Below, one piece after another: positions 343-57,653 of a stretch of DNA of 61,094 bases. Below the pieces are notes generated by a model that saw only the letters and a program-made list of their open reading frames with translations, was not told the origin of the DNA and made no database searches. The stretch is taken from the NCBI GenBank assembly GCA_001938485.1, contig MQRK01206634.1, positions 5,761-66,854 of the forward strand. Direction: 5' to 3'. The translations under genes were made by a program, and so were the position numbers. The stretch comes from Girardia tigrina. Taxonomy: Eukaryota. Position 1 is the stretch's first letter; the number at the start of each line of letters is the position of its first letter.

Positions 343-1129
343 AATGTGAATTTTAAATAAATTGTAATTTAAATTTGTTTAAATAATAATAAGACGTTGA
401 GAAATATAATTAAATTTATTAATCAAAAATGATGACGAGCTACCGAAAGTTTTTTGGAAAATTGTCCTAGTGACAATTCAAGTTGTGATACAAATAAAGG
501 TATTAAAAATCCAATTAGTGTTCTTAATATTAAGAAAATTTAAGAACAGATATTTTAATAATAAGTCAGGAAATGAGAACAAGCGTGACCTCATTCTGGA
601 AAAATGTCAAAAAAATCGATAATTTTAATTGTAATTTACCTACAAATAATTTTGGAATTTGTTAGATAATAAAAACAAATTATTCGAGAAAATTATTAAA
701 ATAATATTAAATTTTCCACTAGAAATCAAGAAATACAATAACAAATAAATTTCTAAAAAATATGAATAAAATCTGGATAAAAAACTAAAGGTTGGAAAAC
801 AGGAAAATATCAAAAAAGAAAACTGAAATATGAAGAATTACGACGAAAAAATTCGAAAATGTGGAAATACAGCAATTCATTTGCTTGCTAAAAAATTCGA
901 CAGCGCAGTTCACCATGTAAAACGTTTTCCGGAAAATGTTTATATTTTAACTCATTATAAGTTTTTTTAAATAACTTTTCATATCCACGGGCCGATACAT
1001 TAAGAGGACAATGGAAAGTCGTCGAAAAGACAATTCTTGTAATATTTTTTATAAATTAAATTTTTTTGAAAATTTACGCAATAATAGCATCAAGAATTAC
1101 TAAATTGGAGATAAATAGCGGGATAAATT

Positions 1130-2262
1130 TCCACATCGATAACTGGGTGTCAATCGACGTGGCATCATATGCGCGACAATACCGAATATGCGCGGAACTC
1201 AAACCAAAGTTTATCAAAATACAAGATCAGAGACCGGTGGTTTCTAAACAAACATGGCAAAGAATATCCATTGACTTTATGGGCCTAAAAGAGTTATCCT
1301 TGGAAAATCCTATATTCTAACAGTTATTGATGAATTCTCAAGATTTCCATTTGCATTCTTTGTACCGAATATGTCGAGAGAAAATGTCATTCAGTGTTTG
1401 GAAGAGCTATTTACAATCTTTGGTCCGCTATGTAAAATCCACAGCGACAGAGGGCGACAATTTGAAAGTCGGGCACTTGCTGATTTCATCAATAAAACGA
1501 GAACAACTCCGTACCATCCGGCGGTAAATGGTCAATATAAACCCCTAATTGGAATCATATGGAAAAATGTTCAGTTGAGACTGAGCCAAGTCCGTAGACC
1601 ACTGGTCGAGTGGACAAGTGAACTTCAACGAGCAGTTATGAATATAAGAGCCCTTTCATCAAGAGCAATTGGGATGGTAAATCCACATTAAATGTTTTTT
1701 GGGTTCCGGCACAGATCTATATTGGAGGATCCGGAAAAATTAAAAGCAAGTTTGCTGATGATATTTGAGGTGCCATCATGGGTGGCCTCTGGAATGCGGC
1801 CTTTCTCAAAACATGGAGAGGGTAAGCAAATCGGATACCTTGTTGGAAGAAGTGATAATCCGAAATGCTATCTCACCTCATGTGGTTCAAGTTTGTTTTC
1901 CTAAGTCGAGAAGAATGGACACGTTATGATCTATGGATTTATCAAGGAGCCATCCTGGAACTCAGAATCCAGTTTTGAGTGTGGAGAACAGCACAGATGA
2001 AATCCAAATAGAGACCCGTGGAACAAAAGTATCAACTGAAGAAACCAATGGTAATGGCCGACTGCATCGTGTGAAAAGAAGCCCTGGATATTTAAAGAAC
2101 GATGTTAGTGATTTAATCAGTGATGGAGAATGTGGTGATTGTTTGAATAATTGAAACATTTTGTGGTGAAATTACAAATTATCTTTGTAAACATTTTTTG
2201 TATATTAATAAATCGATAATCTGACTGGAATTTAAAGGGAAATTCGACACTGATTATTAAAC
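1130..2262 (+). mobile_element. Ty3/gypsy relic: frameshifted integrase, PPT and short 3' LTR (about 2131-2262)
   Basis: Integrase motifs across frames: WQRISIDFMG, VIDEFSRFP, IHSDRGRQFES, TTPYHPAVNGQ, and tail RVKRSPGYLKND. Purine tract GATGGAGAA precedes TGTGGTGA...TTATTAAACA. Confidence 0.85.
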
Positions 2263-2689
2263 AAGCTATCAATAATTTTAATTACTTTTTATTAATGCAT
2301 TCAATAGCCAAGATATGTATCAATCAAACAAAAAAACTAAGTAAAAAATGTTAATTCATGGTCAAATAAAAACTATTGGAATTTATATTAATCATGCCTA
2401 AAAACTTCATACTTGAAAACCTAATAATACGCTTATGGGGCTTAGAATGTTTTAAAAAAATTCATACCAAACGTTTGTAATTTTATTTAGTTGTAGAAAT
2501 TCACTATAGGCTGTTGTTACTATAGTTTTTTTTCGCAATAAATCTTTTTCAAAAATATTCAACAAATATAAAAAATTATATTAAATATCATATCTATCCG
2601 ACCGGATACGTACGTAATGTGTTTCAAAGTTAGAATATGTAGCCATATTTATAATATAATTATTGATCGAAATTATCCTGGGGTCAATA

Positions 2690-5600
2690 ATGTCTTCAAT
2701 TAATAAAACCTTGTTTTCTACAAAGCATGTGGTCAAAGAATATTTAATTGTACTAAAAGATGAATCTTTGAAAATATTTTTGGATGAAAAAACCATTCGT
2801 AGTATCGGTGTAAAAACCAATTGCTACGTACAGCTGACAAATAGAATTTTAAATAGAAAAGTAAATGCGTTTAAATTTATCAAATACGCGATCGTTCGTA
2901 TCACTGGACAAGATGAATGCGCCATTCGACAGTGTAATCGATTGTTGGAGCACCAATTTCCTCTTTATAGACACAGGAAAGATTATCATAAACGACCCGA
3001 ATGTTGCACTATTTATTCTCAGGAACTTGTTCCCGATAACGCATCTTTATGCTTCGCTTTTCAAAGAACTGGAGCCACTACATATCAATATGGAGATATT
3101 CTTATTAAGTCTCCTCATGAGCCGACGGTCGATCGACCAAATGAAACATGTCAATGGAGATCTGGTGATTCTGACTTGAAAAAAGGAATAACAGTCTCAA
3201 CGGGAAAACAGAACGAAAATTATCTTAATTGGTATTTTAGAAATTCGTTTCTACAACAAGAACCATACGACCCAAAAGTCACAATCAAATATGTTTATGA
3301 CGATTGCAAAAAAGAATCTTTAGGTTCCGATAAAACTAAAAATAAAAACGGTCGGCAATTGAAAAAGTACGGAGATTATCCAGCAAAACGTGTTGAATTT
3401 GTGGATTCGGTGATTGATGAACAGAATCTAACGGAATTCGAAACCCCTTTGTCTTTGTCATATATGTCGGAAAATCGAAAATTTATAACCGAAGAAAATG
3501 ATATTTCGAAAGAATCTTTCTCCGGAGATATTGGAGAAAAAACTGTAAAGGAATTTCAAAACATACGATCGAAATCCGAGGAAAAGAATTTCAAGCCTGA
3601 GGCGAAAATCCTTAACCAATCTCAGGATGTTGAAAACCGTCTAATTGAAGTTTCGTGTCAGAAAATATTGTCGAAATTAGGAGACGATTTTTTAAGAAAT
3701 GTTTCAGAAACCAGCAGCAATAAGAGTAGTCGAAACATAAATGATGGGGAGAAGAAATCGTTTAACTCGAATTTGTTTTATAGAAATATGATTCAACAAA
3801 TTTTCGATGAATTTCTAAATACAGCCATGAAAGAGAATTTTGAGAGAAGCGTTTCTAAAAACGATTGTACTAAAAAAATAGAAGAAATTTTCATCGAAGG
3901 AATGATAAATAATATTGTTGAAGATCTTCATCGAAAATATTTTACATCAAGTAAGCTCATACAGTCCGATCACGATAGCACAACATCTTCTGAAAACGCT
4001 AGTAAACTGAGATCATCATTGGCAAAGAAATATTCAAATGATGACGAAAATCCATATAAAGGAAAAGTAATAAATTTTGTCGAATCCTCTGGGAATACGA
4101 GCGAAGAAACTGGATTCGATTTAACAAATACTTTACCGAAACCCCCTTCAAAAGAGAACAAAACGAATATGTTACCATATAAATTCACATCAGATACCAC
4201 TTCACCAAGTAGTACTATGAAAGATGAAACTAAAGATTTGTTTCCAAAATCTTCTTATATAAGTGATTCAAGCAAACAGAGTGCTGGCGAAAAGTTGGTT
4301 GAAACAGAAATCTGCAATTTTTTATTTGATAATTGTATTGATAAGATACTTGATGAAAGGTATTCTCCTTCTAAAGTTTCGAAAGATTTTCCAGATGGAC
4401 GGAATTCAAATTTCCAGGAAAAATGTCTGGACAAAATCACTGATTACTTGCTTTCAGAATTAATCGATATGGAAAGTCAAAAAATGATAAATAATATTAA
4501 TCAAGAAAAAGAGAATCAATTGATGGACAAAATATGGCAAAAATTAGAAAATAATATTAGTAATGAAATTCTTGAAATGATTGAGGATTCGCAAATAAAA
4601 ATAAAGGAGTCGCTTGTTCCTAAACGAAATCCATCGGCAACTCGAATAGATTTAGAGAGCTTAAAAAGCGTCTCAAAAAGTGATGATAAGAATGGAAAAC
4701 CAATGACTAATCTCAAATTAGTAGAAACATTTTCTGTTCCTAAAAATTCAAAAGAATCAATCGGAAGTCCAACTAATGAAAATGTTCCACAAATACTTAC
4801 AGGTATGATTTCAAAATCAAGGAGTAAAACTGAAGAGTCTGTAAGAAGGGACTCATTAAAATCACAAAACAGTTCTAAACAAGCAAATGAATTGCTTGAT
4901 AGTTCCCTTGATATCAAAGGGTTTCGTAAGTTGAAAGATTCTGATTCCAAATCTACGTCCAAAACTGAAGAATCTTCAAGAAATACTTCTTCAAAATCAC
5001 AAAATGCTGCAAAAGAATTTATTAAAAGTTCATTTGATAACAAAGTTCCTGCGATTTCGAAAGATTTCCTTTCAAAATCCAGGAGTAAAACGGAAGAATC
5101 TCCTTCAAATGATTCTTCTAAGACTCGAAGTAGTTCTAAATATGCCAAAGAGTCAACTGCAACTCCATCAGATTTCCAAGTTCTACAGTCCACAAACGTA
5201 CCAGATTTTAAATCAGAAAGTAAGCTGGAGGAATCTCAAAAAAAGGATGTTTTAAAAGTTCAAAGTCCTCCGGATAAAGATTCTAATTTAATTGTTGTAA
5301 GCTCTGATGATTATTTAGTTCCAATGACGACCAATGACATAGAACTAAAATCTTTGAATGATATGAAAGTTAATTTTATTTTGAAAGATGAGACTGTAAA
5401 AAGCAAAACCAAAGTTGAAACTGAAAAAAAACATCCAAAACAATCGAAAAAAAAATCGAAAATAACAGAAGAAGAGTTTCAGAAGAAACTTGATGAAAAA
5501 CTAAAAGAAACTGTTCCCGGTAAAAGAAAATCCTTAGATGATAAATTTAAGCAAATAATTTATGATTCAAGCGGACTAATTAGAGAAAATATTGAAAACA

Positions 5601-7654
5601 CGACACCGGACGAATCAACATGGGAGTCTTTGAAACATAGAAGTAGTCAACAAAACAAAAACCAGTGTTTTGCTACAAATCCCGAGAGAACATCCGACGA
5701 GACGAAATTCTTCCAAGAAACAATTCAAAAACCGAGTAAAGATTCCCAAAATTCTCTCAGCCATCTCTCGTCCGTGATTTCCGATGGATATAATATGATG
5801 AATCATTACTTTTTTAAAGAAAAATTTAAAATTTCTAAATTAAAATCATTTCGAGAAAGTCTATCAACTAAAAGTGATAAAAACTCTAAAATAATTAATG
5901 TTGACACGGAAATAGGATATGAGAAATGGAAAACCTTTTTATCAAACCCCAATACATTCTTGGACTCTTCTGAGCCCACAAACTATCGAGTTAGCAATAA
6001 CTTTGAAGATTTACAAACGACTCAAATGTCCCAGTCAAACAATCTTTCTTCGTCGTTTGATCATTCTTCTTGTTGTTCTTCATGTCGTAAAAAGAATTCT
6101 CAGAATAAAAGTCAGTATAACGGCATTTTTCATCAGCGAAAGTCTTCTGAAATCGTTGAAATCGAAGACGTTGATATTCATGTTAATTTACCATCGGAAG
6201 AAGTTAAAGAAACTTCTAATCAATTGTTGAATGTAAATCAGTTTGATTTCGTAACATCGGATCAAATAAAAATAGATGACAGAAATAAATATTATAACAG
6301 AAATATGTATACAGAGTCTTTACATATAAGTGAGATTAAGGACAAGAAAACCGAAGTAGAAGTCCTTAAATTTACTTTGGACCTTCAGCAAGAGGTTAAA
6401 ATAGATAAAAGTCATAAACATCCTATTGATAAATATCTACCTACAAGGGAAAGTTTAGAAATCTTATTATATGACATAATGTGTAAAAATTATTGTATAC
6501 CATCAATAAGAACTCCTTTCGTGACTTTTGAGATATTTGGAGAACGGCATGTAATCTTTCCTCAAAATACGGCTAAAGAATTGATAAAATATTCGGAAGT
6601 TTTACATATTTCCAAAGTTCTCATTGACTCAAATTTTACTCTTAATATGAACACAAAACCAATCCCCAAAAGTAGGCTTAGCTTTTGCACTACCATTTCT
6701 CTGGAGAACGAATTAGACCCAACAGATATTTTGGAAAATCTTATCAAAAACGACTTTAAAACAAAAGCAATCCATCTACCTGTTATAAATGATTATATTA
6801 GTAGCTGTGCAACAGATTCCATCCAGATTTCTGATAACTCTTTCGACAAAGAGAATATTGGACTAATATTAGATAACTCCTTCAGTTTTTCGGAGAATCT
6901 TTGTGAATGTTCAACTAATTTAACGAAACGTTCTGACGACCAGTCGATAGATTCTGTATTCATATCATCTGATTGTAACAATTTGACTGAAAGTAACAAT
7001 AAAGACTTATATTATGATAGTTCTTCTCCGGAAAATCAGTTCAGCTTCTCCCAAAAAGACAATCATTGTTTACTAGAAACTCAAAATTCGCAAAGAAGTC
7101 TCTCAAAATCGCCATCAAATCCTAATTTACCGAAAATTAAAAAAACCCTTTTAAACATATCAAAAGAAGGAAGACTGAAGAAAACGAAACCCGTTGATAC
7201 AGAAGAAAAATACCATCCTAAAAAAAGTATTTTAGAAACTTATAAAAATGATTATTTTTCAGTGTTCGGTGATTCGGAAAATCAGTCCGTAAATCTAAAT
7301 GATATGCATGATCAAACTTTCCTTTCGGAAAGGTCTTCCAGTAAAACGTTTTCGAAAACTAATACAAAATCACGAAGCCGAACTTTGTCAGAGAAACTGA
7401 AACATAAAGCCATGAAAATTTTATCAAAATTGACCCCACTGGGAAAATGTTCCAGTACGGACAATATTACGGACACGGATGACTGTTTTACGTCCGTCAC
7501 GTCAGCGAACACGAAAATCGGTCCTTGTCCGGACGATCTATTCCCAACAAAAACTCTCGATTCTGAATTTTCGAAAAATTCTTTTTCTCGATATTTTAAT
7601 ATTTATAAACGAATGAAATTAAAACAGAATTCTTTCAATATTAAAACTTCATGA
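2690..7654 (+). CDS. Large single-exon S/K/E-rich protein of unknown function (about 1654 aa from the first ATG)
   Basis: Uninterrupted 5-kb ORF in very AT-rich DNA, ATG at 2690 and AATAAA about 80 nt after the stop. No transposase or RT motifs. Complex N-terminal ~220 aa followed by low-complexity sequence. Confidence 0.85.
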   Translation: MSSINKTLFSTKHVVKEYLIVLKDESLKIFLDEKTIRSIGVKTNCYVQLTNRILNRKVNAFKFIKYAIVRITGQDECAIRQCNRLLEHQFPLYRHRKDYHKRPECCTIYSQELVPDNASLCFAFQRTGATTYQYGDILIKSPHEPTVDRPNETCQWRSGDSDLKKGITVSTGKQNENYLNWYFRNSFLQQEPYDPKVTIKYVYDDCKKESLGSDKTKNKNGRQLKKYGDYPAKRVEFVDSVIDEQNLTEFETPLSLSYMSENRKFITEENDISKESFSGDIGEKTVKEFQNIRSKSEEKNFKPEAKILNQSQDVENRLIEVSCQKILSKLGDDFLRNVSETSSNKSSRNINDGEKKSFNSNLFYRNMIQQIFDEFLNTAMKENFERSVSKNDCTKKIEEIFIEGMINNIVEDLHRKYFTSSKLIQSDHDSTTSSENASKLRSSLAKKYSNDDENPYKGKVINFVESSGNTSEETGFDLTNTLPKPPSKENKTNMLPYKFTSDTTSPSSTMKDETKDLFPKSSYISDSSKQSAGEKLVETEICNFLFDNCIDKILDERYSPSKVSKDFPDGRNSNFQEKCLDKITDYLLSELIDMESQKMINNINQEKENQLMDKIWQKLENNISNEILEMIEDSQIKIKESLVPKRNPSATRIDLESLKSVSKSDDKNGKPMTNLKLVETFSVPKNSKESIGSPTNENVPQILTGMISKSRSKTEESVRRDSLKSQNSSKQANELLDSSLDIKGFRKLKDSDSKSTSKTEESSRNTSSKSQNAAKEFIKSSFDNKVPAISKDFLSKSRSKTEESPSNDSSKTRSSSKYAKESTATPSDFQVLQSTNVPDFKSESKLEESQKKDVLKVQSPPDKDSNLIVVSSDDYLVPMTTNDIELKSLNDMKVNFILKDETVKSKTKVETEKKHPKQSKKKSKITEEEFQKKLDEKLKETVPGKRKSLDDKFKQIIYDSSGLIRENIENTTPDESTWESLKHRSSQQNKNQCFATNPERTSDETKFFQETIQKPSKDSQNSLSHLSSVISDGYNMMNHYFFKEKFKISKLKSFRESLSTKSDKNSKIINVDTEIGYEKWKTFLSNPNTFLDSSEPTNYRVSNNFEDLQTTQMSQSNNLSSSFDHSSCCSSCRKKNSQNKSQYNGIFHQRKSSEIVEIEDVDIHVNLPSEEVKETSNQLLNVNQFDFVTSDQIKIDDRNKYYNRNMYTESLHISEIKDKKTEVEVLKFTLDLQQEVKIDKSHKHPIDKYLPTRESLEILLYDIMCKNYCIPSIRTPFVTFEIFGERHVIFPQNTAKELIKYSEVLHISKVLIDSNFTLNMNTKPIPKSRLSFCTTISLENELDPTDILENLIKNDFKTKAIHLPVINDYISSCATDSIQISDNSFDKENIGLILDNSFSFSENLCECSTNLTKRSDDQSIDSVFISSDCNNLTESNNKDLYYDSSSPENQFSFSQKDNHCLLETQNSQRSLSKSPSNPNLPKIKKTLLNISKEGRLKKTKPVDTEEKYHPKKSILETYKNDYFSVFGDSENQSVNLNDMHDQTFLSERSSSKTFSKTNTKSRSRTLSEKLKHKAMKILSKLTPLGKCSSTDNITDTDDCFTSVTSANTKIGPCPDDLFPTKTLDSEFSKNSFSRYFNIYKRMKLKQNSFNIKTS
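4811..5340 (+). repeat. Coding tandem repeat, about four units of 42-45 aa (SKSxSKTEES...)
   Basis: Units start at 4811, 4946, 5072 and 5207 (spacing 135/126/135 nt): SKSRSKTEES, SKSTSKTEES, SKSRSKTEES, FKSESKLEES. Confidence 0.8.
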
Positions 7655-10860: not shown

Positions 10861-12292
10861 TGATGCGAGAGCATGCGCAGCGCGGCTGCAGCACACTGTA
10901 ATCGGGGGACAGTGGTGGGGTCAGGGGAATAAAAAATTACTTTCTCACTTGTTCCATGAAAATTGTCTTATTTTTTATCAATTTTGAATGTCTGATCTTT
11001 GCTCAAGGAAAGCAATTGATCGATTTCACTCGACACTCCGATGTCCATTTTTGTAGTTCGATTATTGCTAAGACAGAGACAATCCGTATCAATGACAATC
11101 GCTCCGTAAAGAAGCCTCAGTAGAATCTCCAGTTGTAGCATTGATCTATTAGTCAATAGAAACTGTGCAACGAGCGTAGAACAAGAACTGACTGTTTGAA
11201 TGCTCTCTGTCTCGAGCTGACCCGGAGGAAATCTGCATTTGATCTCGCGATGATCAATGATCTCTGGAACGTGACACGTGATCCGCTCTTCCGCGCTCGA
11301 TGGCGGTCGAGAGCGACTCACACATTTTCCCAAAATCGGCAATCATTGAAACACATCTCTATTCCATCCAAATAAACCAAATCATTGGCGAAATCGATAT
11401 CAAACTTTCGTTGCAACCATTCCAGGATATCGCGTCTTAAAATCACATTTTGCTTGGAATTAGAGCTAATCGGAATGACATTATACAAATCGTGATATTG
11501 CAAATGCTTGTAAAATCCATAAACTAAACGGGAAACAATACTGTCCAAATCGGACAATTCATTGCCAATAATTAACCATTTCGGTTTATCGGAATTCAAA
11601 AACGTTTTTCGTGAGGAAATGAAATCATTAAATGAAATAATTGTAATCATATCATTTGAATTTTTAAAACTAATAAAAAAAATTATTGAAAAAATCTTTT
11701 CATTCGACAAAAATTCATATTTTCACAAGAAAAAATAAAAAAAAGTTCGATCGCTCTCGACTCGATATCGATTGGACTTTGAATTTGAATTAGAGGTCAA
11801 ATTCGATTTCTCTGAGAGAAATTTTTATATCGATTAATTAATTTTCTATCAATTAAAATTGGGGGAAATTTTTCGACACGAAATTTTTATCGATTCGGTT
11901 TATTTGAACAATTAAATCATTTTCACTATTGATCGATCGCAATTATCAAATGAGATGCGTACAATATAAATTATCTTGATTGATTTTTAAACAAAAACGG
12001 ATTTATTTTATCAGGAAAATAATTTCACAAAATAGCAATCAACGATTTCACTAAGTTTTAATTCAATTAATTCTGCTTTGATGCGATTTCACACTATCGA
12101 ATTGATTGCCTCAAATTGGTGTCAATAACACATTGATTCAATTGATGCAGTTAAACAAATTAATTAATTATTAAAATTACAATTTATTATTGGCGATCAA
12201 TCAATTAAATGTCGACAAAAATTTGATTTTATTTTTTCAAATAATTTTTCGTCGACTTTCAACAAAAAAATATTTTTTTAACTCTCAAAACC
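10861..12292. mobile_element. Solo-LTR-like insertion A carrying a PRUNE fragment
   Basis: 5-bp TSD CCATG (10856-10860 and 12293-12297). Ends TGATGCGAGAG...CTCTCAAAACC form an imperfect inverted repeat; the last base is C rather than A. It cleanly interrupts the Penelope reading frame. Confidence 0.85.
10941..11650 (-). pseudogene. PRUNE: Exopolyphosphatase PRUNE/PPX1 (DHH domain), 3'-truncated pseudogene
   Basis: IIGNELSDLDSIVS, LRRDI, V*VALDRH (degenerate DHH motif with a stop), frameshift, then EIIDHR, VSSCSTLV, LLYGAIVIDT, TTKMD. DHHA2 half absent; no introns seen. Confidence 0.88.
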
Positions 12293-24328: not shown

Positions 24329-26127
24329 TTACCGCTCATATATGTGAAATGAATGACTGTGCAGTCGATTACGTGAATTTTATCATAAACTCCTAACTAA
24401 TTGATTGAAAGTTCCCCTTGAACATTGATTGATGGGTCATTATATCATAGTAACAATGTTTCACATAAAACTCTCTTCCAATAACTTTTAAATGCTTTGA
24501 TAGAATTTTTAATTTATTTATACTCAATTTTCTATGCTCAGTAAGTTTACTCTTACTCCCTATATTAGCGTGCTATCACCACCCGGTCTCCGGGGCAACT
24601 CGGGCATCTGCCGGAACAATAATATTTTTAATTCTTTTCAATTATAAGCAATTAAGTAAAAATTATAAAAATAAGTTTTTATGAACTGGTAAACATAATT
24701 TTTATCGGTTTTTTTTCGGTTTAAAATAAAAAGAAAGAGACAAATTAAAAAAAAATAAATTATTAGTAATTAGAAAACAAATGTTTGATAATCGAAAACT
24801 CTTTTCCTATTTAACGACAATTGAATGGTGACATGTTTGATATAGAAAAAGTAACTTCTGTTCTGCTGGATTTCAACTCTGTTATTATATCAATAATTTA
24901 TCCCGGGAAAACAATAGAAAAGAAGAAAAAGTAAAGACTGTCGAACATAAAAAAATAATTATATGATTTGTTAATATTTTCCACAATCGATGTGACATTT
25001 AAAAACTTAATAAATAAATAATGAGAGTTTGAATTCAACAAAGAATTTTGTTTTAAGAGAAATTTCGACAAAGATCAAGAATAATTGATAAGAATTTACC
25101 TTAATGATTGATGTTTTCGTTAAGAAACGAGAAGAATGTTGCAGCTACATTTGATATTTGTTCTTTCTGTTTTATCAATTTTAATTACCATTTCTGTCTC
25201 TTTTTCATTTGTCATAAAACAATTGTTTTATTGGGCGAAAAAAAAGAAACAAAAATGCAACTATTTCAGGAAAAATAAAATTCCCAATTATGAATTTATT
25301 TATATTTATGTATTTTTGTTAATTCAATCCAAATTGTAATGTCAATTCTATTACATGTGTATAATAATTATAAGAAATAAAATCAACGTGTATATTAATA
25401 TTTTATTTTTTTTCTTAAATTAAAATAAAAAAACAAATACAATTTTGTCTAATTTTTATACGGCTTTAAAAAATTATTTATTTTATCTTTAATACAATTT
25501 TTATGTTTATTATATAGTTCAAACAATAAAAAATTTGGAGTGAATAGTAGAAATAAAAATTACAACTGAAAAAAAATAAAATTTAAAAATAAGGATATAT
25601 TATTTTTGGTTAATGGACTTTGATGCCCCCTCGATTTAGGGAACCTGACAAACATATATCGAAAGTTTAGGCTACCACTTCATACCTAACACTATGATAA
25701 ACATTAATACCTAACTCACATATCACATATTCAAACAACTTAAAACTATCCTTTGATAAATATACATATTTTATATACGTCGAATTTATATCTATCGACA
25801 TCTTTTTGGAACTTCATCAAAAATAGAATTTCGCAGTTTTCCATGATTTTCGTAGAATCTTTGTTAAGGAATAAATATTACATATCAATATTCTTGTAAT
25901 TTCAAATTGACTTTTTCTTACAAATTCCATATATGGGATTTTTATTTAATTTAAAATTTATTTGATTTCAATTTTTGAAATTATATTAAATTTGAATTTT
26001 CTAAATGAATTATTTTGTGAGATGACATTTTAACTAATGCAATATAATCAGAATCAATATGCAAATTTATTCCCAAAGATACAAGATGTTCCTTTTAAAC
26101 AACAAAATGATTTTAATGGAAGGAAAC

Positions 26128-26850
26128 TGATGCGAGAACGTGCGTAGCCGGACTGTAGCACCCTGTAGTCGTGGGGCGGACGAGGGGTCGTGGAAAAATT
26201 TATTTTAATTTACTCGAAATTCTCTTGATTTTCTGATTTAATTCTTTTATCTCCGACTCGCCGCCGTGAATGGATTTCTTTCGATCGTGGACTTTCGACA
26301 TTATAATTATAAATATCAAATTAATCACGATTGGACAACTTTTCCAACCGGAAGCGGCCAACTAACCAATGTAACTTGAATGAAACACAAAACCACCCAT
26401 CATTACAAACAAACTACTCGATATTCTGTCTTTATTTCGAAACAAAATAATCAAAACCGTTATGAAATTATGAATCAATAAAATTGCAGAAATCCATTTT
26501 TCTTTTTTGCCAATCGAATAGTAAAAAATACGCAGTGAATTTCGTAAAATTCTCGAATGATGGTCAGTCAGTCTGAAATCAGACAAATTCATATTTACCG
26601 CTGAAATGATTTGGATTCAAAATAATTCCATTTCAATGGCGACTTATAATTTCAACGAAAAACAAAACAACGAATTGCACCAAAAATAATTTTATTAATC
26701 GAGTTAACACTCACAAAAAGAAAATAACAAATGGCTCCTCAAATTCAAAATTCAAAAACGCGCTGACATTAAACAAATGAATCGCATAAAAAAATTCTAA
26801 ATTTACTAATAAAATAAATATTTTTTTCTTTTTTTTTAATTCCTCAAACA
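26128..26850. mobile_element. Solo-LTR-like insertion C carrying TMEM18
   Basis: Perfect 5-bp TSD GAAAC (26123-26127 and 26851-26855); ends TGATGCGAGAA...TTCCTCAAACA; first 62 nt match insertion A at 47 positions without gaps. Confidence 0.92.
26200..26592 (-). pseudogene. TMEM18: Transmembrane protein 18 pseudogene (near full length, intronless)
   Basis: One frame: FYYSIGKKEKWISAILLIH..LFRNK..LFVMM..FVFHSSYIG*LAASGWKS / CPIVINLIFII..basic tail. One premature TAG, and the conserved QYFDxxGxFISxxFS block is deleted. Confidence 0.8.
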
Positions 26851-27794
26851 GAAACTATAATAGATTGATATCAAAGATAGAAAGTGTGCCCTATTTCACT
26901 TATTCAGTGAATTTGGTTAAGATTATGATAAGGGTTAGGAGGAGCGGTGCAATTCAGTCCCTCTGAGAATCATTCAAACTTAATTTAAAAATTACAGGTA
27001 TACAGGGGTGTTTCAAGGTACATGAAGATCACTTGGATTAATTAGGAGATTATTCTAGTCATAAGAAACAAATAGACAAATATGTGTTCAAATCTTTTAA
27101 TTTCTTTAAAATTAATTTTCCGCAATTATTTTGTTATGAGTTTAAACAAGAATTTTACAAATCATGTAAATAAGAAGAAGAAAACCACATATAAATTCTC
27201 CTTTACGAGTTCCGTATATTTGTCCATTTATTGTTCGAATTAAAAAAGTCTGTACATAGTGAATAAAATCGAAATACAGTTGCTAACTCGGCAAAATAAG
27301 AACAATTAAAAAATTGGCCGGGGGTCATTGACTGGCTTGCCTAATAAAAATCGTACCCCAGGCGTTGAGTTGATGAACAATTTTAACAAATTATAACCAT
27401 GTAAAAGAGATCTTAATTAAAATATGTTATTTTTTGGTATACGAACAAATTTCTACAGAAAAAAAGAATTTAATACTTTCCTTTATATTTTTTAATGTCT
27501 CACAAAAATCGGTTTTGCTAAGGTAAACAAATCCATTTTCAAGTTAGAAATAAGATTTAAAATTTATTTATTAAAATATTTCAACATAAAAAGTGGAATT
27601 AGGATCATTTATTCGAATTTCTCAATCTTGAAAGTTTCAAAATTAAGTAATCAATAACAACGATGTTATAAGGGACGATATTTTAATGTTTCATATTTGT
27701 TCCAACCGTAAACACGTCCGTAAAATACTGAAATATAGGTAAAATGTCATTCTATTATCATAATTTGTGAGGAATATTTTCGTTTAATGATATA

Positions 27795-29136: not shown

Positions 29137-30512
29137 TTAGGTGTATAACTTAGTTTTTTGGATTTTCTAAGAGATGGTGTAACCTTTGTAATAAGCATTA
29201 TTTTACAGTCGTACGTACAGATTTTTAAAGTGCTGAAATCGAGGCATTAAAATTAAGTAGGTCATTGACCTTAAATGCATCATAAACATATTTTTAATCA
29301 CGTTTTAGCATGACAACTTTCATACCAACAAAACCGCATTTGCGGCAAGCACTTCTGTTTTGCTTTAATCAAAAGAAAAAAGCTGCAGACAGTTTTCGGT
29401 TTCTTGAAGAAACTTATGGTCAACATGCACCAACTCAACAGACTTGCGAGAACTGGTATAAACGTTTCAAAAGTGGAGATTTCAACGCAAGTGACAAAGA
29501 GCGTTCCGGTCAACCAAAAAGATTCGAAGATGAAGATTTGGAATCATTACTGAAGGAAGATTCTACTCAATTAGAGAAAGAGCTTGCAAAACAGTTAAAT
29601 GTTACTCAAGCAGCCATAAGTAAACGTCTACATGCTATGAAAATGATTCAANNNNNNNNNNNNNNNNNNNNNNNNNNNNNNNNNNNNNNNNNNNNNNNNN
29701 NCCATAAGTAAACGTCTACATGCTATGAAAATGATTCAAAAAGAAGGAAAATGGATACCACATGAATTGAATCAAGCCAACATTGAAAGTCGATTACTGA
29801 TATTCAATTCATTGCTTACAGGACAATGAAGATGATCGTTTTTGCATAATATTGTGACTGGAGATGAAAAATGGATTTATTATGTTAACTCTAAACGCAA
29901 GAAATCGTGGGTTCATCCCGGCGAACCGTCCACGTCAACAGTAAAAAGAAACATTCATGAAAGAAAGGTTATGTTGTGCATTTGGTGGGATCAGAAAGGT
30001 GTACTGTACTATGAGCTGCTGAATTCGAATGAAACTGTTAATGCAGAACGTTACCAACAACATTTAATGAAATTGAACGATGCATTGAAGGAAAAACGTC
30101 CTATCCCAGCCAACAAACAGCGCACAGTGATTTTGCTCCATGACAATGCTCGGCCACATGTCGCAAAGCAAGTAAAAAACACGTTGGAAGCACTTAAATG
30201 GGAAATTCTACCGCATGCTGCCTATTCACCAGATTGTGCCGATCAATGTTCCGATCATCTGTTCCGATCAATGCAAAGCGCTCTTCGGGACCAGTACTTC
30301 AGAAATCAGGAACATATAAAAAATGACTGGAACAATGGATCGCATCAAAAGACCAAAACTTTTTTTTCGATGGAATTCATAATTTGCCTGAAAGATGGTC
30401 GAAAGTCCTAATTAACGATGGAAAATATTTTGATTAGAATAAAACTTATTATGTCATATAAATAAACTTGTCTGTTCTGCAAAAAAGTCCAAAAACTAAG
30501 TTATACACCTAA
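29137..30512 (+). mobile_element. Mariner (DD34D, Mos1-like) element, full length, with disrupted transposase (29310-30437)
   Basis: TA-flanked TIRs TTAGGTGTATAACTTAGTTTTT; WYKRFKSG, RSGQP, WIPHEL, VTGDEKW, LHDNARPH, YSPD. Contains stops and a 50-N gap. Confidence 0.95.
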
Positions 30513-31211: not shown

Positions 31212-34200
31212 TCCATCTCCATTAGAATTTAGGATGCGCTTCAACCATTCAATTCTTCTTGGTTTTGGTTTTCCTGGAAAATCAATCAACACTTGCTGTG
31301 GACTTAAAAATTCAAGAATTTGAAAAGGACCATCATATCAGTTTCCATTTTTCTTCATGTTGTGAGAATCTTTCTTTACTAAAACTTTTTCATCGATCTA
31401 AAAATCTCTATAGCCTCTTCTGCTTGCTTCTAAGTTTTGAAGTTTGTCTGCCGCCTTTCCTGATTCAAATTTCGTTTCCAAAATTATTCTCTCATGATCA
31501 ATACTGCTTGATGGTGGTAACCAAGGTAAAATAACTTTCCTCCCAAACACAATTTCAAACAGTGATCGTTTAGTTTGAACGTACAGTTCGAATGGCTGGC
31601 TCTGCTAATCCATTTGCTTGATGTTGATACGGAGAAGTAAATTCTTGTTTAATTCCAAATTTTTCTGTTTGTTTCTTTAAAATAGATCCTTCAAATACTC
31701 GGCCTCGATCTGACAATATATATTTAGGCTTCCCAAACTTGTAAAACAAGTGATATTTTATAGTTTCTGCAACACTCAATTCATCTTGTTTAGTCAAAGT
31801 TACAAGACTCACTAGTTTGCTGAAACGGTCTATCATCACAAGTAAATATTTGTATCTGGATTTGAATTCTGAGAAGTATGCTACATCAATTATCATTTTT
31901 TCCAGCAGCCCAAAATCTTCTCGTGGTATCAATAACTCTTTTGTACGCCCCGAATATGTTTTTTTTTGCATATATTTCACATATCTGTACCATGAGTTCG
32001 ATAGTTTTACTCATGTTTGGCCAATAATAGCTTTCCTGAATATATTCAACTAACTTTTTGCTTCCCAGATGACACAACACTTCGTGAAAATACTGGGTTA
32101 ACTTCTCTGCATAATTTTCTGGGACTAATATCTGTAATGTCTTTTCATTCATCATCTTAACAATTCCATCTCTCAATTCATATTGATTCCAAATCTTTTA
32201 ATATTTACTTTTCTTCACTTCCACATTTATTTTCTGAGAGGAACCTCCAAGTCATTGATGTATTGATTTCAGTATTGAGTCTGACAGTTGTATCGCTCTT
32301 ATGTCTTCATTGTTCAAATCTTCTGTTTCTATTGTGTTTATGAACTTTACTTTTGATTTATTTGACTTTGTTACGTGATGACGTGTCAAATATTGAGTAG
32401 ATAGTTTTTCATCAATTCTTGAAAGTCCATCAGCATTAGTATGCTCTTTTTCTTTCCGATATTCCAAAATAAAATTAAAACTAGATAAATTAGCAATCCA
32501 TGTCTAGAATTGTGGACTAATAGACTTGTTGTTTTTGTCATGTAAGTTAAAGCCTTATGATCAGTGCGGACTAAAAATTTCTTCCCATAAAGATAATGTC
32601 TGAAATACATTATAAACTCATGAACCGCCAGTAATTCTTTTCTAGTTACACAATAGCCTTTTTCGTGGTCGTTTAGAGTTCTAGATGAAAATACAATGAT
32701 TGTCTAGTTCCCAATATTATAATTTTGACTCAAAACTGCTCTGATAGCTCCAAAACTTGCATTCGTGTCTAAAATCCTTGTTTTCTTGATATCCGGATAT
32801 GCTAATATTGGAACTGTTGCCAATTCACTCTTCAAATTATTAAAACTCGACTTGCAATCTTCCGTCCAGTGAATTTCTTCCTCTTTTTCACTCAGCATAG
32901 CACACAAGGATGCGATAATTAATGCGTAATCTTTAATGAACCGCCGATAATAGTTTGCTAACCATAAAAATGACCTCAGCTGTGTAATACCTCCTGGGCG
33001 TGGAACTTGCACAATCTTTTTGATTTTATCATCGTTCGTTTCAACGCCCTTGTTTCTGATTGTGTGTCCCAAAAACTTAAGTCTTCTGGTTCCAAAAACA
33101 CATTTATTTGGGTGTGCCATCAAACCAGATTACTTAATTATTGTAAACACTTGTTTTAATATACTTAAATGGTCTTCCTCTTTCTTAGCATAAATTAATA
33201 TATCATCTAAATATTCAATAACTCCTTTATAAAGTAAATCCTTAAACAATAAATTCATAAGGCTCTGAAAAGTTGCTGGAGCTGTACTTAATCCAAACGG
33301 TAATCGATTGAAACAAAATTGACCGATTTTAGTACTAAAAGCTGTTTTTAATTTTGATGCTTCATCCTGTTACACCTGATAATGCGCTTGACCTAAATCA
33401 ATGGGCGAAAAAATTATTGACGCCCGTTAAGTATCCAACAATGTGTAAATATCCGGCCCAGGAAATCTAAATTTCTTCGTAACATTATTCAGTCATCTAA
33501 AATCTAAGCGCATTCTGATGGATTCAACTTTTTTCGGTACAATAACCAGAGAAGAATTCCAAGGAATCTTACATGACTTAATAATATTAACTTTCAATAA
33601 ATCAACAACTAATTTATCAATCTTGTCTTCAAGATGCATGGGTTGGTATCTAGGATTTGCAGAAATTGGTGGACCGGTAGTCCGGATTTCATGTTTGATT
33701 ACCGTTGTGTGGCCTAAATCAAATTTTGAAGCCATAAAAATTGATTCATATTCCTTAACAAGTAAAGTTAATGGCAATTTTGACTTGTCAATTAAACTCC
33801 TTAATGCGGCATTAATACGATCACGATTATTAAATTTCAATTCCACGTCCGAAGTATCTATAGTATTCACTTCCGTTAAGCCTATGTCTCAAATTCTCAT
33901 CATATCGATTCCTCCAATAAATCCAGGGTATATATTTCGCACAATCACTATTCCTTTTTTTTCCCTTAACACCGTCCACAAAATATCAACATATATTTTA
34001 TCTAAACATATTTCAGGACTTGTAGAAAAAACACCTGCAAGTTTAATGTCTGATCTCTGCATATCTGGTTTTCCTATCCGATGTCAGTTAACTTCGCTCA
34101 TAACTGTGATTGAAGCACCGGAATCCCATTCCATTTCAACATTAATTCCATTACAATTCATCAAACTCCATATTCTACCATCTGCCTTTTGGAACATCCC

Positions 34201-34449
34201 CTCTTTCATCACCTGTCTCATTCTTCGTCCTCTATCTCTGCCTTCAATAATATTTACTGACTCAACCTCACCGACGAGATAGGCACGAGGGGTTGATATC
34301 GGTTTTTTTCGTCGTTATCTTCTTCAATTTCCTGTAATTTTTGGTTTAAGAACCAACAACTCTTGTGTCTTCCACGGCAAATTGGAAAACATTTTCTGTC
34401 GTTCTTCTCGCTTCGCTGTGGTAATTGCATTTATTTCGGCGTAGTCGCC

Positions 34450-50687: not shown

Positions 50688-52044
50688 NNNNNNNNNNNNN
50701 NNNNNNNNNNNNNNNNNNNNNNNNNNNNNNNNNNNNNNNNNNNNNNNNNNNNNNNNNNNNNNNNNNNNNNNNNNNNNNNNNNNNNNNNNNNNNNNNNNNN
50801 NNNNNNNNNNNNNNNNNNNNNNNNNNNNNNNNNNNNNNNNNNNNNNNNNNNNNNNNNNNNNNNNNNNNNNNNNNNNNNNNNNNNNNNNNNNNNNNNNNNN
50901 NNNNNNNNNNNNNNNNNNNNNNNNNNNNNNNNNNNNNNNNNNNNNNNNNNNNNNNNNNNNNNNNNNNNNNNNNNNNNNNNNNNNNNNNNNNNNNNNNNNN
51001 NNNNNNNNNNNNNNNNNNNNNNNNNNNNNNNNNNNNNNNNNNNNNNNNNNNNNNNNNNNNNNNNNNNNNNNNNNNNNNNNNNNNNNNNNNNNNNNNNNNN
51101 NNNNNNNNNNNNNNNNNNNNNNNNNNNNNNNNNNNNNNNNNNNNNNNNNNNNNNNNNNNNNNNNNNNNNNNNNNNNNNNNNNNNNNNNNNNNNNNNNNNN
51201 NNNNNNNNNNNNNNNNNNNNNNNNNNNNNNNNNNNNNNNNNNNNNNNNNNNNNNNNNNNNNNNNNNNNNNNNNNNNNNNNNNNNNNNNNNNNNNNNNNNN
51301 NNNNNNNNNNNNNNNNNNNNNNNNNNNNNNNNNNNNNNNNNNNNNNNNNNNNNNNNNNNNNNNNNNNNNNNNNNNNNNNNNNNNNNNNNNNNNNNNNNNN
51401 NNNNNNNNNNNNNNNNNNNNNNNNNNNNNNNNNNNNNNNNNNNNNNNNNNNNNNNNNNNNNNNNNNNNNNNNNNNNNTTTTTTTTTATAAAAAGTTGCTT
51501 AATATTCTTATATTTAGCTTTAATAATAATGATTTTTAAAACATTTTGAAAGAGGTTTTAGGGCCTTAATTTATATATGTTAGGAACTTGAGGAGCTCAC
51601 TTAAATTTTTGAATTTTAACATTTAACAAGATATAAACAGATTATACAGATTCGGATTAACTAAAGTTTACTGCGTTTTAAAATAGTTCATACATTAAAA
51701 TATAGCAGAAAAATATTTAGACTAAAAATATGTTTCATAAATTAAAATTTTAGAAAATTTACACCTAAAATGAAAATTTTATTATTTAAACATTATTATA
51801 AAATGCAAATTTTATAAGAATATAAAATCAAAATGAATAATTTAGTTTAAGATTTTAAGAAATATATTATATAAATGACTTAGCGAAAGCAACACAGTTG
51901 GGTGAACCCTTTTATAAAATCAATAATAGACCAATAAATAAAAGATAAAATAATATTTAAAATTTAAAAAAACTATCAAAGTCGTTTTTTTTACTTAACT
52001 GTGGGTGTTTGGCATGGTTTTGTTCATTTTGATTTTAATTCCTT

Positions 52045-52583
52045 CAACATATCTCTTGAAGTGACTCATCCATCAACTTTTGATGGTAAGATCAAAGCTT
52101 ATCATGGCTGTAACAGGTAACGAGAAATTATTGTTCAATTCTGGAGAAAGTCTGAGCTACCACATCTAGGGAAGACAGCAGGTGGCAAATTACCCAATAC
52201 CGACTTGGGGAGGTAGTGACAAAAAATAACAATATAGGCATGTGTGGCTTCATAATTGCAATGAGAACATTTGAAATACTTTATCGAGTATCAATTGGAG
52301 GGTAAGTCTGGTGCCATAAGCCGTGGTAATTCGAGCTCCAAAAGCGTATATTAAAGATATTGCAGTTAAAAAACTCGAAGTTGAATTTTAAGAGAAATAT
52401 AGTTCGAAATTTACGATTAATAGCTATCATTTCATTCGATGTAAAATATATCTTTGATGTTCAATGGGTGTTGAGGATAACCGACAAGTTTACTTACTGA
52501 AAATGTCAGAGTACTTAAATCAGGCTTATGCTTGTGTATTGTCTTCTGTTTTATTTTGTTGGTTTTCAAAACTGAAGTAATGA
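52045..52583 (+). pseudogene. Degenerate internal fragment of an 18S rRNA gene
   Basis: Mutated universal motifs GCTACCACATCTAGGGAAGACAGCAGG, CAAATTACCCAAT, GAGGTAGTGAC, ATTGGAGGGTAAGTCTGGTGCCATAAGCCGTGGTAATTCGAGCTCCAA; several deletions. Confidence 0.93.
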
Positions 52584-52763
52584 AGTACTAACGGACAATG
52601 ACCAAGTCTTGTACGTATTAACATGAAAGACCAGTTAATTCATTTTATTATTGAATTTTATTATTGTCATTCATTTGATTAATACATTAATAAGTTACTT
52701 TCCAACCTACTGTAAAATGACAATGAGTTTATTTAATGGCAGTATAAATACTAATATAGATTA

Positions 52764-56948: not shown

Positions 56949-57653
56949 CAGGGTATCGCATTTCTATATTACAACCCTTGCATATATTTCTATATTACAC
57001 ACAAAAATTGAAAATATTTTTTTATTTACCCCAAATACCATGGTAAGAAAAGAAAGGAAAACCCTTACAGAGGAAAAGAAGGATTTAATACTTCGATTGG
57101 ATATTCAGCCAACAAAGTTAAAGTATACAGGTAGATTCCTGCAAACAGAGGCACAAACTTCAGCTGCCTCTGTGTTATCTCTTATGAAGGACTAGTCGCG
57201 TATGAAAAGGGTCGGGGTGCTTATAACTCTGGGTTTTTTAATAAATTGGTCGAGAGTCACATCGCGGCCTACTTTAGGTCTAACCCGGAGAAGATTCTAA
57301 TCATGGACAACGCGAGGTTTCACCATGCGCGAATAACTATCGCCACGTTAGAGGAATTAGGTATTACGTATATGTACCCTCCTCCCTACTCTCCTCAACT
57401 GAATCCGATCGAGGAGTTTTTTTCGATGATGAAAGCCCGTTTTAATGGTATACGTAACCCCGCTAATACTGTCGAAGTTGATATTGACTCTGTTCTTATT
57501 AGTGATTTTAGAGCTCCGTGTCTAAGATTTTATGATAAAATGCTCACATGGGTTGAGAAAGCAAGGCAGAGACTAGATTTTATATAATAAACGAATTTTT
57601 ATAATTTTTTATTTTTTATTTTTTTGTGTGTAATATAGAAATGCAATACCCTA
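56949..57653 (+). mobile_element. Internally deleted IS630/Tc1-like (DD34E) element
   Basis: TA-flanked TIRs CAGGGTATCGCATTTCTATATTACA; NFSCL, IMDNARFHH, PPYSPQLNPIEEFFS. Confidence 0.92.

What the first reader, a model, noticed from the sequence alone, without database searches (positions are those of the whole stretch)
26123..26855. Smallest, cleanest unit: nearly a whole TMEM18 CDS inside 723 bp
Perfect TG..CA ends and GAAAC TSD. The TMEM18-like frame runs from ATG 26592 to a terminal TAA at 26200 directly abutting the conserved block, with one premature TAG and a frame-preserving loss of about 19 codons. The layout resembles a compact promoter-ORF-structured-end cassette.
Basis: partly seen in the sequence, partly recalled or inferred. 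Interest (0 to 1): 0.72.

Follow-up and report, generated by a model that had tools for sequence, protein, structure and literature searches.

The report
Retrotransposon LTR carrying host gene starts
The 723-base unit is a lone end-repeat (solo LTR) of a BEL/Pao jumping gene that holds a broken, spliced front piece of the host TMEM18 message; relatives hold pieces of other host genes in the same slot, and these pieces likely serve the element as borrowed start signals for its own protein.

Summary
The boundaries are real (26128-26850, TG..CA, GAAAC duplication), but the unit is a minus-strand solo LTR of a BEL/Pao retrotransposon, not a gene cassette. Elsewhere in this genome its start follows a polypurine tract behind BEL pol, and its conserved end precedes a primer-binding site and ubiquitin-gag. 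The cargo is spliced TMEM18 mRNA from about its 5' end to codon 114 of 144. The last ~34 codons are mostly a leftover of an earlier capture (acyl-CoA synthetase). The 57-nt deletion is shared (19 of 24 loci); the TAG and terminal TAA are nearly private; private changes are neutral. Related LTRs carry many other host coding pieces in the same slot. In the best-kept relatives one frame runs from the cargo through the primer site into ubiquitin-Gag (993 codons). The likely mechanism is serial capture of host mRNA 5' ends during strong-stop synthesis, the cargo giving the start codon and ubiquitin cleavage freeing Gag; this role is inferred, and this family's own solo LTRs show no frame bias. The scan noted similar shared-end cassettes on other DNA of this genome; the notes I saw did not name a BEL/Pao LTR.

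The parts
26123..26127 (.). 5-bp target-site duplication GAAAC (left)
26128..26850 (-). solo LTR of a BEL/Pao retrotransposon, 723 bp, TG..CA
26616..26850 (-). U3-like left arm, not homologous to the TMEM18 gene's upstream DNA; shared in part with LTRs that carry other cargo; TATAA at 26648-26644 is a weak promoter hint
   Evidence: L289: 73% over 235 columns
26593..26615 (-). captured TMEM18 5' untranslated piece (23 nt); public contigs of the spliced message begin at 26605-26611
26300..26592 (-). spliced TMEM18 coding piece, parent codons 1-114; exon 1/2 joint at 26519/26518, exon 3/4 joint at 26305/26304; +5 and +1 insertions; 57-nt deletion near 26339; TAG 26364-26362
26206..26289 (-). vestige of an earlier captured long-chain acyl-CoA synthetase exon, with insertions, in frame with the TMEM18 piece
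26198..26200 (-). TAA, found at this place in 2 of 22 siblings; most read on into the block
26128..26195 (-). conserved G+C-rich U5-like end block shared by all subfamilies; followed by the primer-binding site in 5' LTRs elsewhere
26851..26855 (.). 5-bp target-site duplication GAAAC (right)
10861..12292 (-). second solo LTR of the same family, 1432 bp, TSD CCATG, with a DHH/PRUNE-like N-terminal cargo

Best explanation
The unit is a solo LTR of a BEL/Pao retrotransposon whose LTR holds a spliced 5' piece of host TMEM18 mRNA, likely picked up when reverse transcriptase jumped onto a host message during minus-strand strong-stop synthesis, and likely used by the once-active element as the start of the reading frame that runs through the primer site into ubiquitin-Gag. 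Steps: (1) shown: the unit is an LTR, it is intronless and it is a TMEM18/ACSL chimera. (2) Inferred: RT starts at the primer site, copies the U5 block and the adjacent old cargo, switches to a co-packaged host mRNA, copies it to its 5' end and then lands on the element's 3' end; older cargo is therefore left as a stump next to the block. (3) Shown in relatives: one frame is open from LTR cargo through the primer site into ubiquitin and Gag. (4) Inferred: host deubiquitinases cut after the ubiquitin's RGG, so Gag gets a fixed N-terminus whatever peptide precedes it; only the frame matters, not the cargo protein. (5) Inferred: LTR-LTR recombination left solo LTRs, which then decayed neutrally. 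I put about 0.95 on the solo-LTR identity, 0.8 on template switching and 0.55-0.6 on the start-codon role.
For: LTR identity: BEL pol 3' end plus polypurine tract directly abuts a TGTTT unit start in 7 of 11 loci examined (4 independent groups; by direct reading); one of them (L116) is a whole TMEM18-type LTR, another (L136) has the TMEM18-type U3. DUF5641, DUF1759 and ubiquitin in the internal DNA. The block is followed by TTTC and a TGGTAGCAGAG primer site in L139, L225, L226, L252 and in 13 block-matching ends (L289 also shares the window's U3). Exact 5-bp TSDs in 9 of 11. One sister element has PP1-like cargo in both LTRs, 90-96% alike (Pfam on the 5' LTR). RNA route: three exon joints are fused, introns absent; the capture begins within about 10 nt of where public contigs of the message begin; no poly(A); ATAAT is shared by TMEM18 and ACSL at the switch. 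Serial capture: ACSL-carrying LTRs exist (L152, L154, L155, L226) and the ACSL stump also ends other cargos (L137, L202, L204). Frame: after the LTR end the frame that continues its last codon is open for 30 or more codons in 23 of 30 elements against 0 and 5 of 30 in the other frames; 18 stops against 69 and 73 in codons 10-41 (29 elements; shuffles mean 56.5, minimum 40 of 500). 993 codons open from LTR cargo through ubiquitin into Gag in L256, 389 in L257. In sister-family 5' LTRs 9 of 10 long runs are in that frame. A cyclophilin piece sits in frame inside PP1-like cargo in a 249-codon frame. The shared 57-nt deletion and the TMEM18-ACSL joint are in frame.
Against: In this block family the frame at the LTR end shows no bias: long runs 14/15/14 by frame among 91 ends; TMEM18 type 10/4/8 of 22, PRUNE type 7/7/6 of 20; primer-linked block-family LTRs split about evenly, five in frame and five not. 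C and T runs at the joint may scramble frames after insertion, but that is an excuse I could not test. The leader has its own Met, mostly at codons 30-48, which could start ubiquitin-Gag without the cargo. Six of the nine in-frame sister LTRs share one PP1-like cargo, and all elements are related, so counts are not independent. An intact RGG was seen in only 9 of 26 fuzzy matches (about five of them probably not ubiquitin). No element with two TMEM18 LTRs, and no TMEM18 LTR followed by a primer site, was found. No transcription start, poly(A) site or translation data. The exact ATAAT switch would have been out of frame; eight unmatched bases follow it.
Confidence: 0.6

Rival explanations
1. 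Same solo LTR and same template-switch capture, but the cargo is a passive hitchhiker: Gag starts at a Met in the leader, and open frames upstream are incidental or only spare the RNA from decay.
For: No frame bias in the block family's solo LTRs; leader Met at codons ~30-48; private changes in TMEM18 cargo are neutral, pN/pS 1.08.
Against: Stop depletion in one frame upstream of the usual first Met; 993- and 389-codon frames that cross the LTR end; in-frame nested captures and duplications.
Confidence: 0.3
2. A LINE-made TMEM18 retrocopy landed inside an existing LTR and was then spread with it.
For: The cargo is intronless.
Against: 5' end complete and 3' end cut, no poly(A), no inner TSD, always sense to the LTR and next to the block, many different genes in one slot, nested stumps.
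Confidence: 0.04
3. A non-autonomous cut-and-paste DNA transposon (Pack-TIR or Ginger-like) carrying gene pieces.
For: TG..CA ends, 5-bp TSD, most copies stand alone.
Against: No terminal inverted repeat beyond TG; ends joined to BEL polypurine tract and primer site; cargo is spliced.
Confidence: 0.03
4. A functional, self-contained TMEM18 expression cassette (promoter, ORF, structured end).
For: Pfam TMEM18 hit; differences shared by at least half of the copies are 16 synonymous to 5 non-synonymous.
Against: Those shared differences are partly the parent's own later changes: at 3 of 4 testable sites a second organism's contig has the LTR state (my mapping). The changes limited to the deleted subfamily are 4 non-synonymous to 2 synonymous. 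The shared deletion removes codons 83-101; the last 30 codons are missing; almost all copies have stops or frameshifts; the block does not fold better than shuffles.
Confidence: 0.03

Closest known systems
BEL/Pao LTR retrotransposons and their solo LTRs
   Same: TG..CA ends, 5-bp TSD, primer site a few bases after the 5' LTR, polypurine tract before the 3' LTR, DUF1759 Gag and DUF5641 pol end; family traits recalled
   Different: LTR interior is host coding sequence that changes between subfamilies; ubiquitin in front of Gag; frame starts inside the LTR
LTR-mediated retrocopies (Tan et al. 2016, PMC5131818; section 5 whole and passages read)
   Same: partial spliced mRNAs, short shared sequence at switch points, multi-gene chimeras, further rounds of retroposition; BEL/Pao carriers are reported
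   Different: In the 15 Drosophila cases the retrocopy replaced part of the internal ORFs; 'within the LTR' and 'solo' do not occur in its text. Here the cargo lies inside the LTR, is copied into both LTRs, survives in solo LTRs and is replaced serially
Yeast Ty1 (PMC5454406; abstract and passages read)
   Same: initiator-tRNA primer site lying inside the GAG reading frame (silent primer-site mutations keep the GAG sequence)
   Different: Ty1's start region is its own; that GAG starts inside the LTR is recalled, not read; no swapped host starts or ubiquitin linker
Ubiquitin insertions in pestivirus polyproteins (recalled, no call)
   Same: captured ubiquitin makes a host-cleaved site that fixes the next protein's N-terminus
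   Different: RNA virus; here the role of ubiquitin is inferred only
TMEM18 (PF14770)
   Same: codons 1-114 of the host gene, 87% identical in this copy
   Different: lacks codons 83-101 and the last 30; fused to an ACSL stump; stop and frameshifts

Membership tests
BEL/Pao solo LTR | TG..CA ends with 4-6 bp TSD | tested here: met
   (9 of 11 exact)
BEL/Pao solo LTR | same unit start follows a polypurine tract behind pol | tested here: met
   (L116, L136, L137, L134, L127)
BEL/Pao solo LTR | unit end is followed by a tRNA primer-binding site | tested here: met
   for block-bearing LTRs with other cargo; none seen for a TMEM18-bearing LTR; the tRNA-iMet label is recalled
BEL/Pao solo LTR | internal DNA has BEL-type domains | tested here: met
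   DUF5641 above cut-off in 3 of 3 loci, DUF1759 below cut-off
BEL/Pao solo LTR | reverse transcriptase groups with BEL/Pao in a tree | not tested
   no RT tree built
BEL/Pao solo LTR | two matching LTRs around one internal region | tested here: inconclusive
   met in sister element L259; only a 100-bp shared piece in L139; not found for the TMEM18 type
LTR-mediated retrocopy (Tan et al. 2016) | introns lost, no poly(A) | tested here: met
LTR-mediated retrocopy (Tan et al. 2016) | microsimilarity at switch points | tested here: inconclusive
   5-nt ATAAT at the 3' switch, no chance test; 5' switch not testable
LTR-mediated retrocopy (Tan et al. 2016) | retrocopy replaces internal ORF between two LTRs (as in the Drosophila cases) | tested here: not met
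   cargo lies inside the LTR
Pack-TIR / DNA transposon | terminal inverted repeats | tested here: not met
   ends TGATG.. and TGTTTG..
functional TMEM18 gene | Pfam PF14770 match | tested here: met
functional TMEM18 gene | whole, open coding sequence under purifying selection | tested here: not met

The most novel reading that the evidence does not exclude
A BEL/Pao clade practises heritable 'start snatching': it repeatedly replaces the 5' leader, start codon and first codons of its own Gag-Pol frame, which lie inside the LTR, with the 5' ends of host mRNAs, keeps in-frame captures, and uses a ubiquitin linker so that Gag is released unchanged. Hundreds of host-gene-bearing solo LTRs are the by-product.
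Probability: 0.5. Interest if true: 0.85.

Novelty: new variant of a known kind. Interest (0 to 1): 0.7.

Why it matters
It would be a route of gene-fragment duplication in which the cargo sits inside the LTR, so every solo LTR is a promoter plus a host coding start. It would explain many 'intronless gene scrap with a shared end' observations in this genome with one mechanism. If the start-codon role holds, a retrotransposon borrows host translation starts in series and neutralises the foreign peptide with a ubiquitin cut, which can be tested with 5' end mapping and ribosome profiling. The copies may also feed small RNAs against the parent genes (untested). The TMEM18 copy at 26128-26850 is itself dead.

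Tried and rejected
Protein search with the window frame found no hit at E 0.001 (13 candidates). No tRNA in the window and no Rfam match on the unit. Folding of the end block: z 0.56; one search folded a wrongly chosen stretch and is not used. First flank survey: 0 of 47 block ends had a primer site, which at first argued against an LTR; primer-linked ends came only from targeted searches. A pattern guess for TMEM18 exon 4 found only three unrelated-looking matches that I did not examine. Run search: no RNA holder listed on record; the contigs are 'RNA?' guesses, show the spliced parent and small family pieces, and say nothing on expression of this copy. Pfam on cargo: 5 of 36 frames hit (two of them not cargo: a chance RuvC-like hit and an inserted hAT piece); 9 of 37 proteins hit, most below cut-off. 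In one search three proteins (L259:5869-6345) were given wrong coordinates and do not test the 3' LTR; the both-LTR claim rests on the alignment. Excess of synonymous changes in the 2-3 copy class against singletons: Fisher p 0.10. Look-ups of earlier findings by sequence and by words were empty. Paper searches (listings only) showed no paper on host genes inside BEL/Pao LTRs or on ubiquitin-Gag; the library lacks most subscription papers and Repbase, so this is weak. Maxwell and Curcio 2007 is not held. Supplements of Tan et al. were not read and may hold cases inside LTRs. The organism was not determined.

Full report
1. Observation. The unit spans 26128-26850 (723 bp), starts TG, ends CA and is flanked by GAAAC on both sides. 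The minus-strand frame from ATG 26592 to TAA 26198-26200 has one TAG and matches Pfam TMEM18 at E 1.8e-8, above the cut-off. A genome search gave 46 matches among 40 scored of 258 candidates, 77-88% identical apart from the window's own. Of 11 TMEM18-type units with both ends visible, 9 have an exact 5-bp TSD. There is no inverted repeat beyond TG. The end block folds no better than shuffles (z 0.56).

2. The parent gene. A TMEM18 family search found, besides element copies, intron-bearing pieces: exons 1 and 2 in L063/L064 and exon 3 in L072. Contigs of coded public runs, laid on exon 3, gave the next exon's start, which located exon 4 in L147-L149. The coding exons are 69, 176, 94 and 96 nt, 144 codons. 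The element joins all three exon junctions without introns, so it came from spliced RNA. Homology starts 23 nt before the ATG; contigs of the spliced message from one sample start at 26605-26611, so the capture reaches about the 5' end of the message. It stops 5 nt into exon 4. These runs are only guessed to be RNA.

3. The tail is another gene. The same lay showed a 34-nt match at 26222-26255 to a different contig. Its flank led to an exon of a long-chain acyl-CoA synthetase (L150/L151; AMP-binding E 8e-21) and to LTRs that carry a longer piece of it right before the block (L152, L154, L155). The window frame is therefore a TMEM18-ACSL chimera, in frame, with ATAAT shared by both parents at the switch, followed by eight unmatched bases. 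The same stump ends other cargos (L137, L202, L204).

4. Stop, deletion and selection. I aligned 35 distinct units to the parent and dropped 11 as allelic or locally duplicated, leaving 24. The 57-nt deletion (parent codons 83-101) is in 19 of 24; five keep the region. A stop at the window's TAG codon is in 2 of 24. The window copy also has +5 and +1 insertions that shift codons ~8-27. Singleton changes are 32 synonymous to 147 non-synonymous (pN/pS 1.08): neutral decay. Changes in 2-3 copies are 22 to 59 (0.63; Fisher p 0.10). Differences shared by at least half of the copies are 16 to 5 (0.07), but these mix the parent's own later evolution with the element's: at 3 of 4 sites I could map, organism B's contig has the LTR state. 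Changes confined to the deleted subfamily are 4 non-synonymous to 2 synonymous. Copies are 87% alike to each other at the median. There is no evidence of selection for TMEM18 function.

5. It is an LTR. The first flank survey found no primer site at 47 block ends. One copy without TSD (L013/L116) had a purine tract and integrase-like sequence before its start. Searching with that flank, 7 of 11 loci (4 independent groups) show the tract directly followed by a TGTTT unit start; L136 continues into the TMEM18-type U3. The internal DNA has DUF5641 above cut-off in three loci and DUF1759 weakly, domains I know as BEL/Pao. At the other end, the block is followed by TTTC and TGGTAGCAGAG (recalled as the initiator-tRNA primer site) in L139, L225, L226 and L252 and in 13 block-matching ends; L289 there shares the window's U3 at 73%. 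A sister element has both LTRs, 90-96% alike, across the PP1-like cargo. No element with two TMEM18 LTRs was found in this fragmented assembly. The unit is thus a minus-strand solo LTR: U3 at 26850-26616, cargo, U5 block at about 26195-26128 (the U3/R/U5 labels are inferred).

6. A family with many cargos. The block core has 265 matches with up to two mismatches, control 0. Among the loci I held, 108 distinct LTR ends fell into 29 single-linkage clusters; some singletons are probably truncated rather than new cargo. Pfam supports TMEM18, LIM (above cut-off), WD40 and DHH/PRUNE-like (below cut-off) and weakly TPR. SOSS-B, glucosamine-phosphate acetyltransferase, beta-tubulin and NASP are resemblances from memory. 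The primer-site pattern has 302 matches; sister families with different U5 ends also carry host pieces in their 5' LTRs: metallophosphoesterase (PP1-like), cyclophilin and DCB domains. All recognised cargos are in sense to the LTR.

7. One frame crosses the LTR end. In 30 distinct primer-linked elements the frame that continues the LTR's last codon is open for at least 30 codons in 23, against 0 and 5 for the other frames; codons 10-41 hold 18 stops against 69 and 73 (29 elements; shuffle mean 56.5, minimum 40). The first Met in this frame is mostly at codons 30-48. In L256 the frame is open for 993 codons from LTR cargo through ubiquitin into Gag; in L257 for 389. In sister-family 5' LTRs 9 of 10 long runs lie in this frame, six of them with the same PP1-like cargo; L258 has cyclophilin nested in frame in a 249-codon frame starting at a Met. 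Against this: the window's own family shows no bias (14/15/14 of 91 ends; 10/4/8 for TMEM18 type with the in-frame length the commonest, 7/7/6 for PRUNE type; about five to five among primer-linked ends). Its joint is rich in C and T runs that may slip, which I could not test. An intact RGG was in 9 of 26 fuzzy matches, about five of which are probably not ubiquitin.

8. Mechanism. Most likely, RT primed at the primer site copies U5 and the nearby old cargo, jumps to a co-packaged host mRNA, copies it to its 5' end and then makes the normal transfer to the element's 3' end. This accounts for sense orientation, whole 5' ends, cut 3' ends, no poly(A), stumps of older cargo next to the block and cargo in both LTRs. 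Because the Gag frame starts in the LTR, a capture would supply a new leader and start codon, and would survive if in frame; a ubiquitin cut (established deubiquitinase chemistry, recalled) would free Gag from the foreign peptide. Capture route and start-codon role are inferred. The main rival is passive hitchhiking with Gag starting at a leader Met (0.3).

9. Comparison. Tan et al. 2016 (PMC5131818; section 5 read whole, other passages; supplements not read) describe template-switch retrocopies, including BEL/Pao carriers and two-gene chimeras, but in their Drosophila cases the copy replaced internal ORFs. In Ty1 the primer site lies in the GAG frame (PMC5454406; abstract and passages). Paper searches (listings only, apart from the two papers named) showed no report of serial host captures inside BEL/Pao LTRs or of a ubiquitin-Gag fusion; coverage is limited. 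Earlier notes of this scan describe shared-end, gene-carrying cassettes on other DNA of this genome; I could not link them to this family by sequence.

10. Verdict. The copy itself is a dead solo LTR. The system it belongs to is a new variant of LTR-mediated retroposition, with a testable and surprising possible function. Interest 0.7.

Noticed in passing
window 10861-12292: Second solo LTR of the same family with DHH/PRUNE-like cargo, TSD CCATG, inserted in sequence that resembles a Penelope-like element (recalled resemblance); sibling L057 keeps a 272-codon open frame up to the LTR end.
   Followed up: partly
L139, L225, L242, L243 (first 1 kb after the primer site): Ubiquitin domain in front of BEL Gag across several sister families, ending in RGG in the better-kept copies.
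   Followed up: partly
L258:730-1476: Cyclophilin N-terminal piece nested in frame inside PP1-like cargo, plus an in-frame duplication, inside a 5' LTR.
   Followed up: partly
window 51780-52636: Degenerate, deleted fragment of eukaryotic small-subunit rRNA (Rfam RF01960, 152.8 bits).
   Followed up: no
window 2660-7654 (+): 1664-codon single-exon open frame, Ser/Lys-rich with short internal repeats; not identified.
   Followed up: no
window 31570-34314 (-), 1060-1900 (+), 29298-30411 (+), 57135-57587 (+): Broken Gypsy-like pol and integrase pieces and mariner/Tc1-like transposase pieces, judged by eye from translations.
   Followed up: no
L010/L023 (G000:C250747:973-2558): Two TMEM18-type LTR copies in tandem with the same outer flank, a local duplication or assembly effect.
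   Followed up: no
L195, L224, L157, L122: LTR cargos resembling beta-tubulin, glucosamine-phosphate acetyltransferase, NASP and SOSS-B (from memory; Pfam gave only a weak TPR hit).
   Followed up: partly
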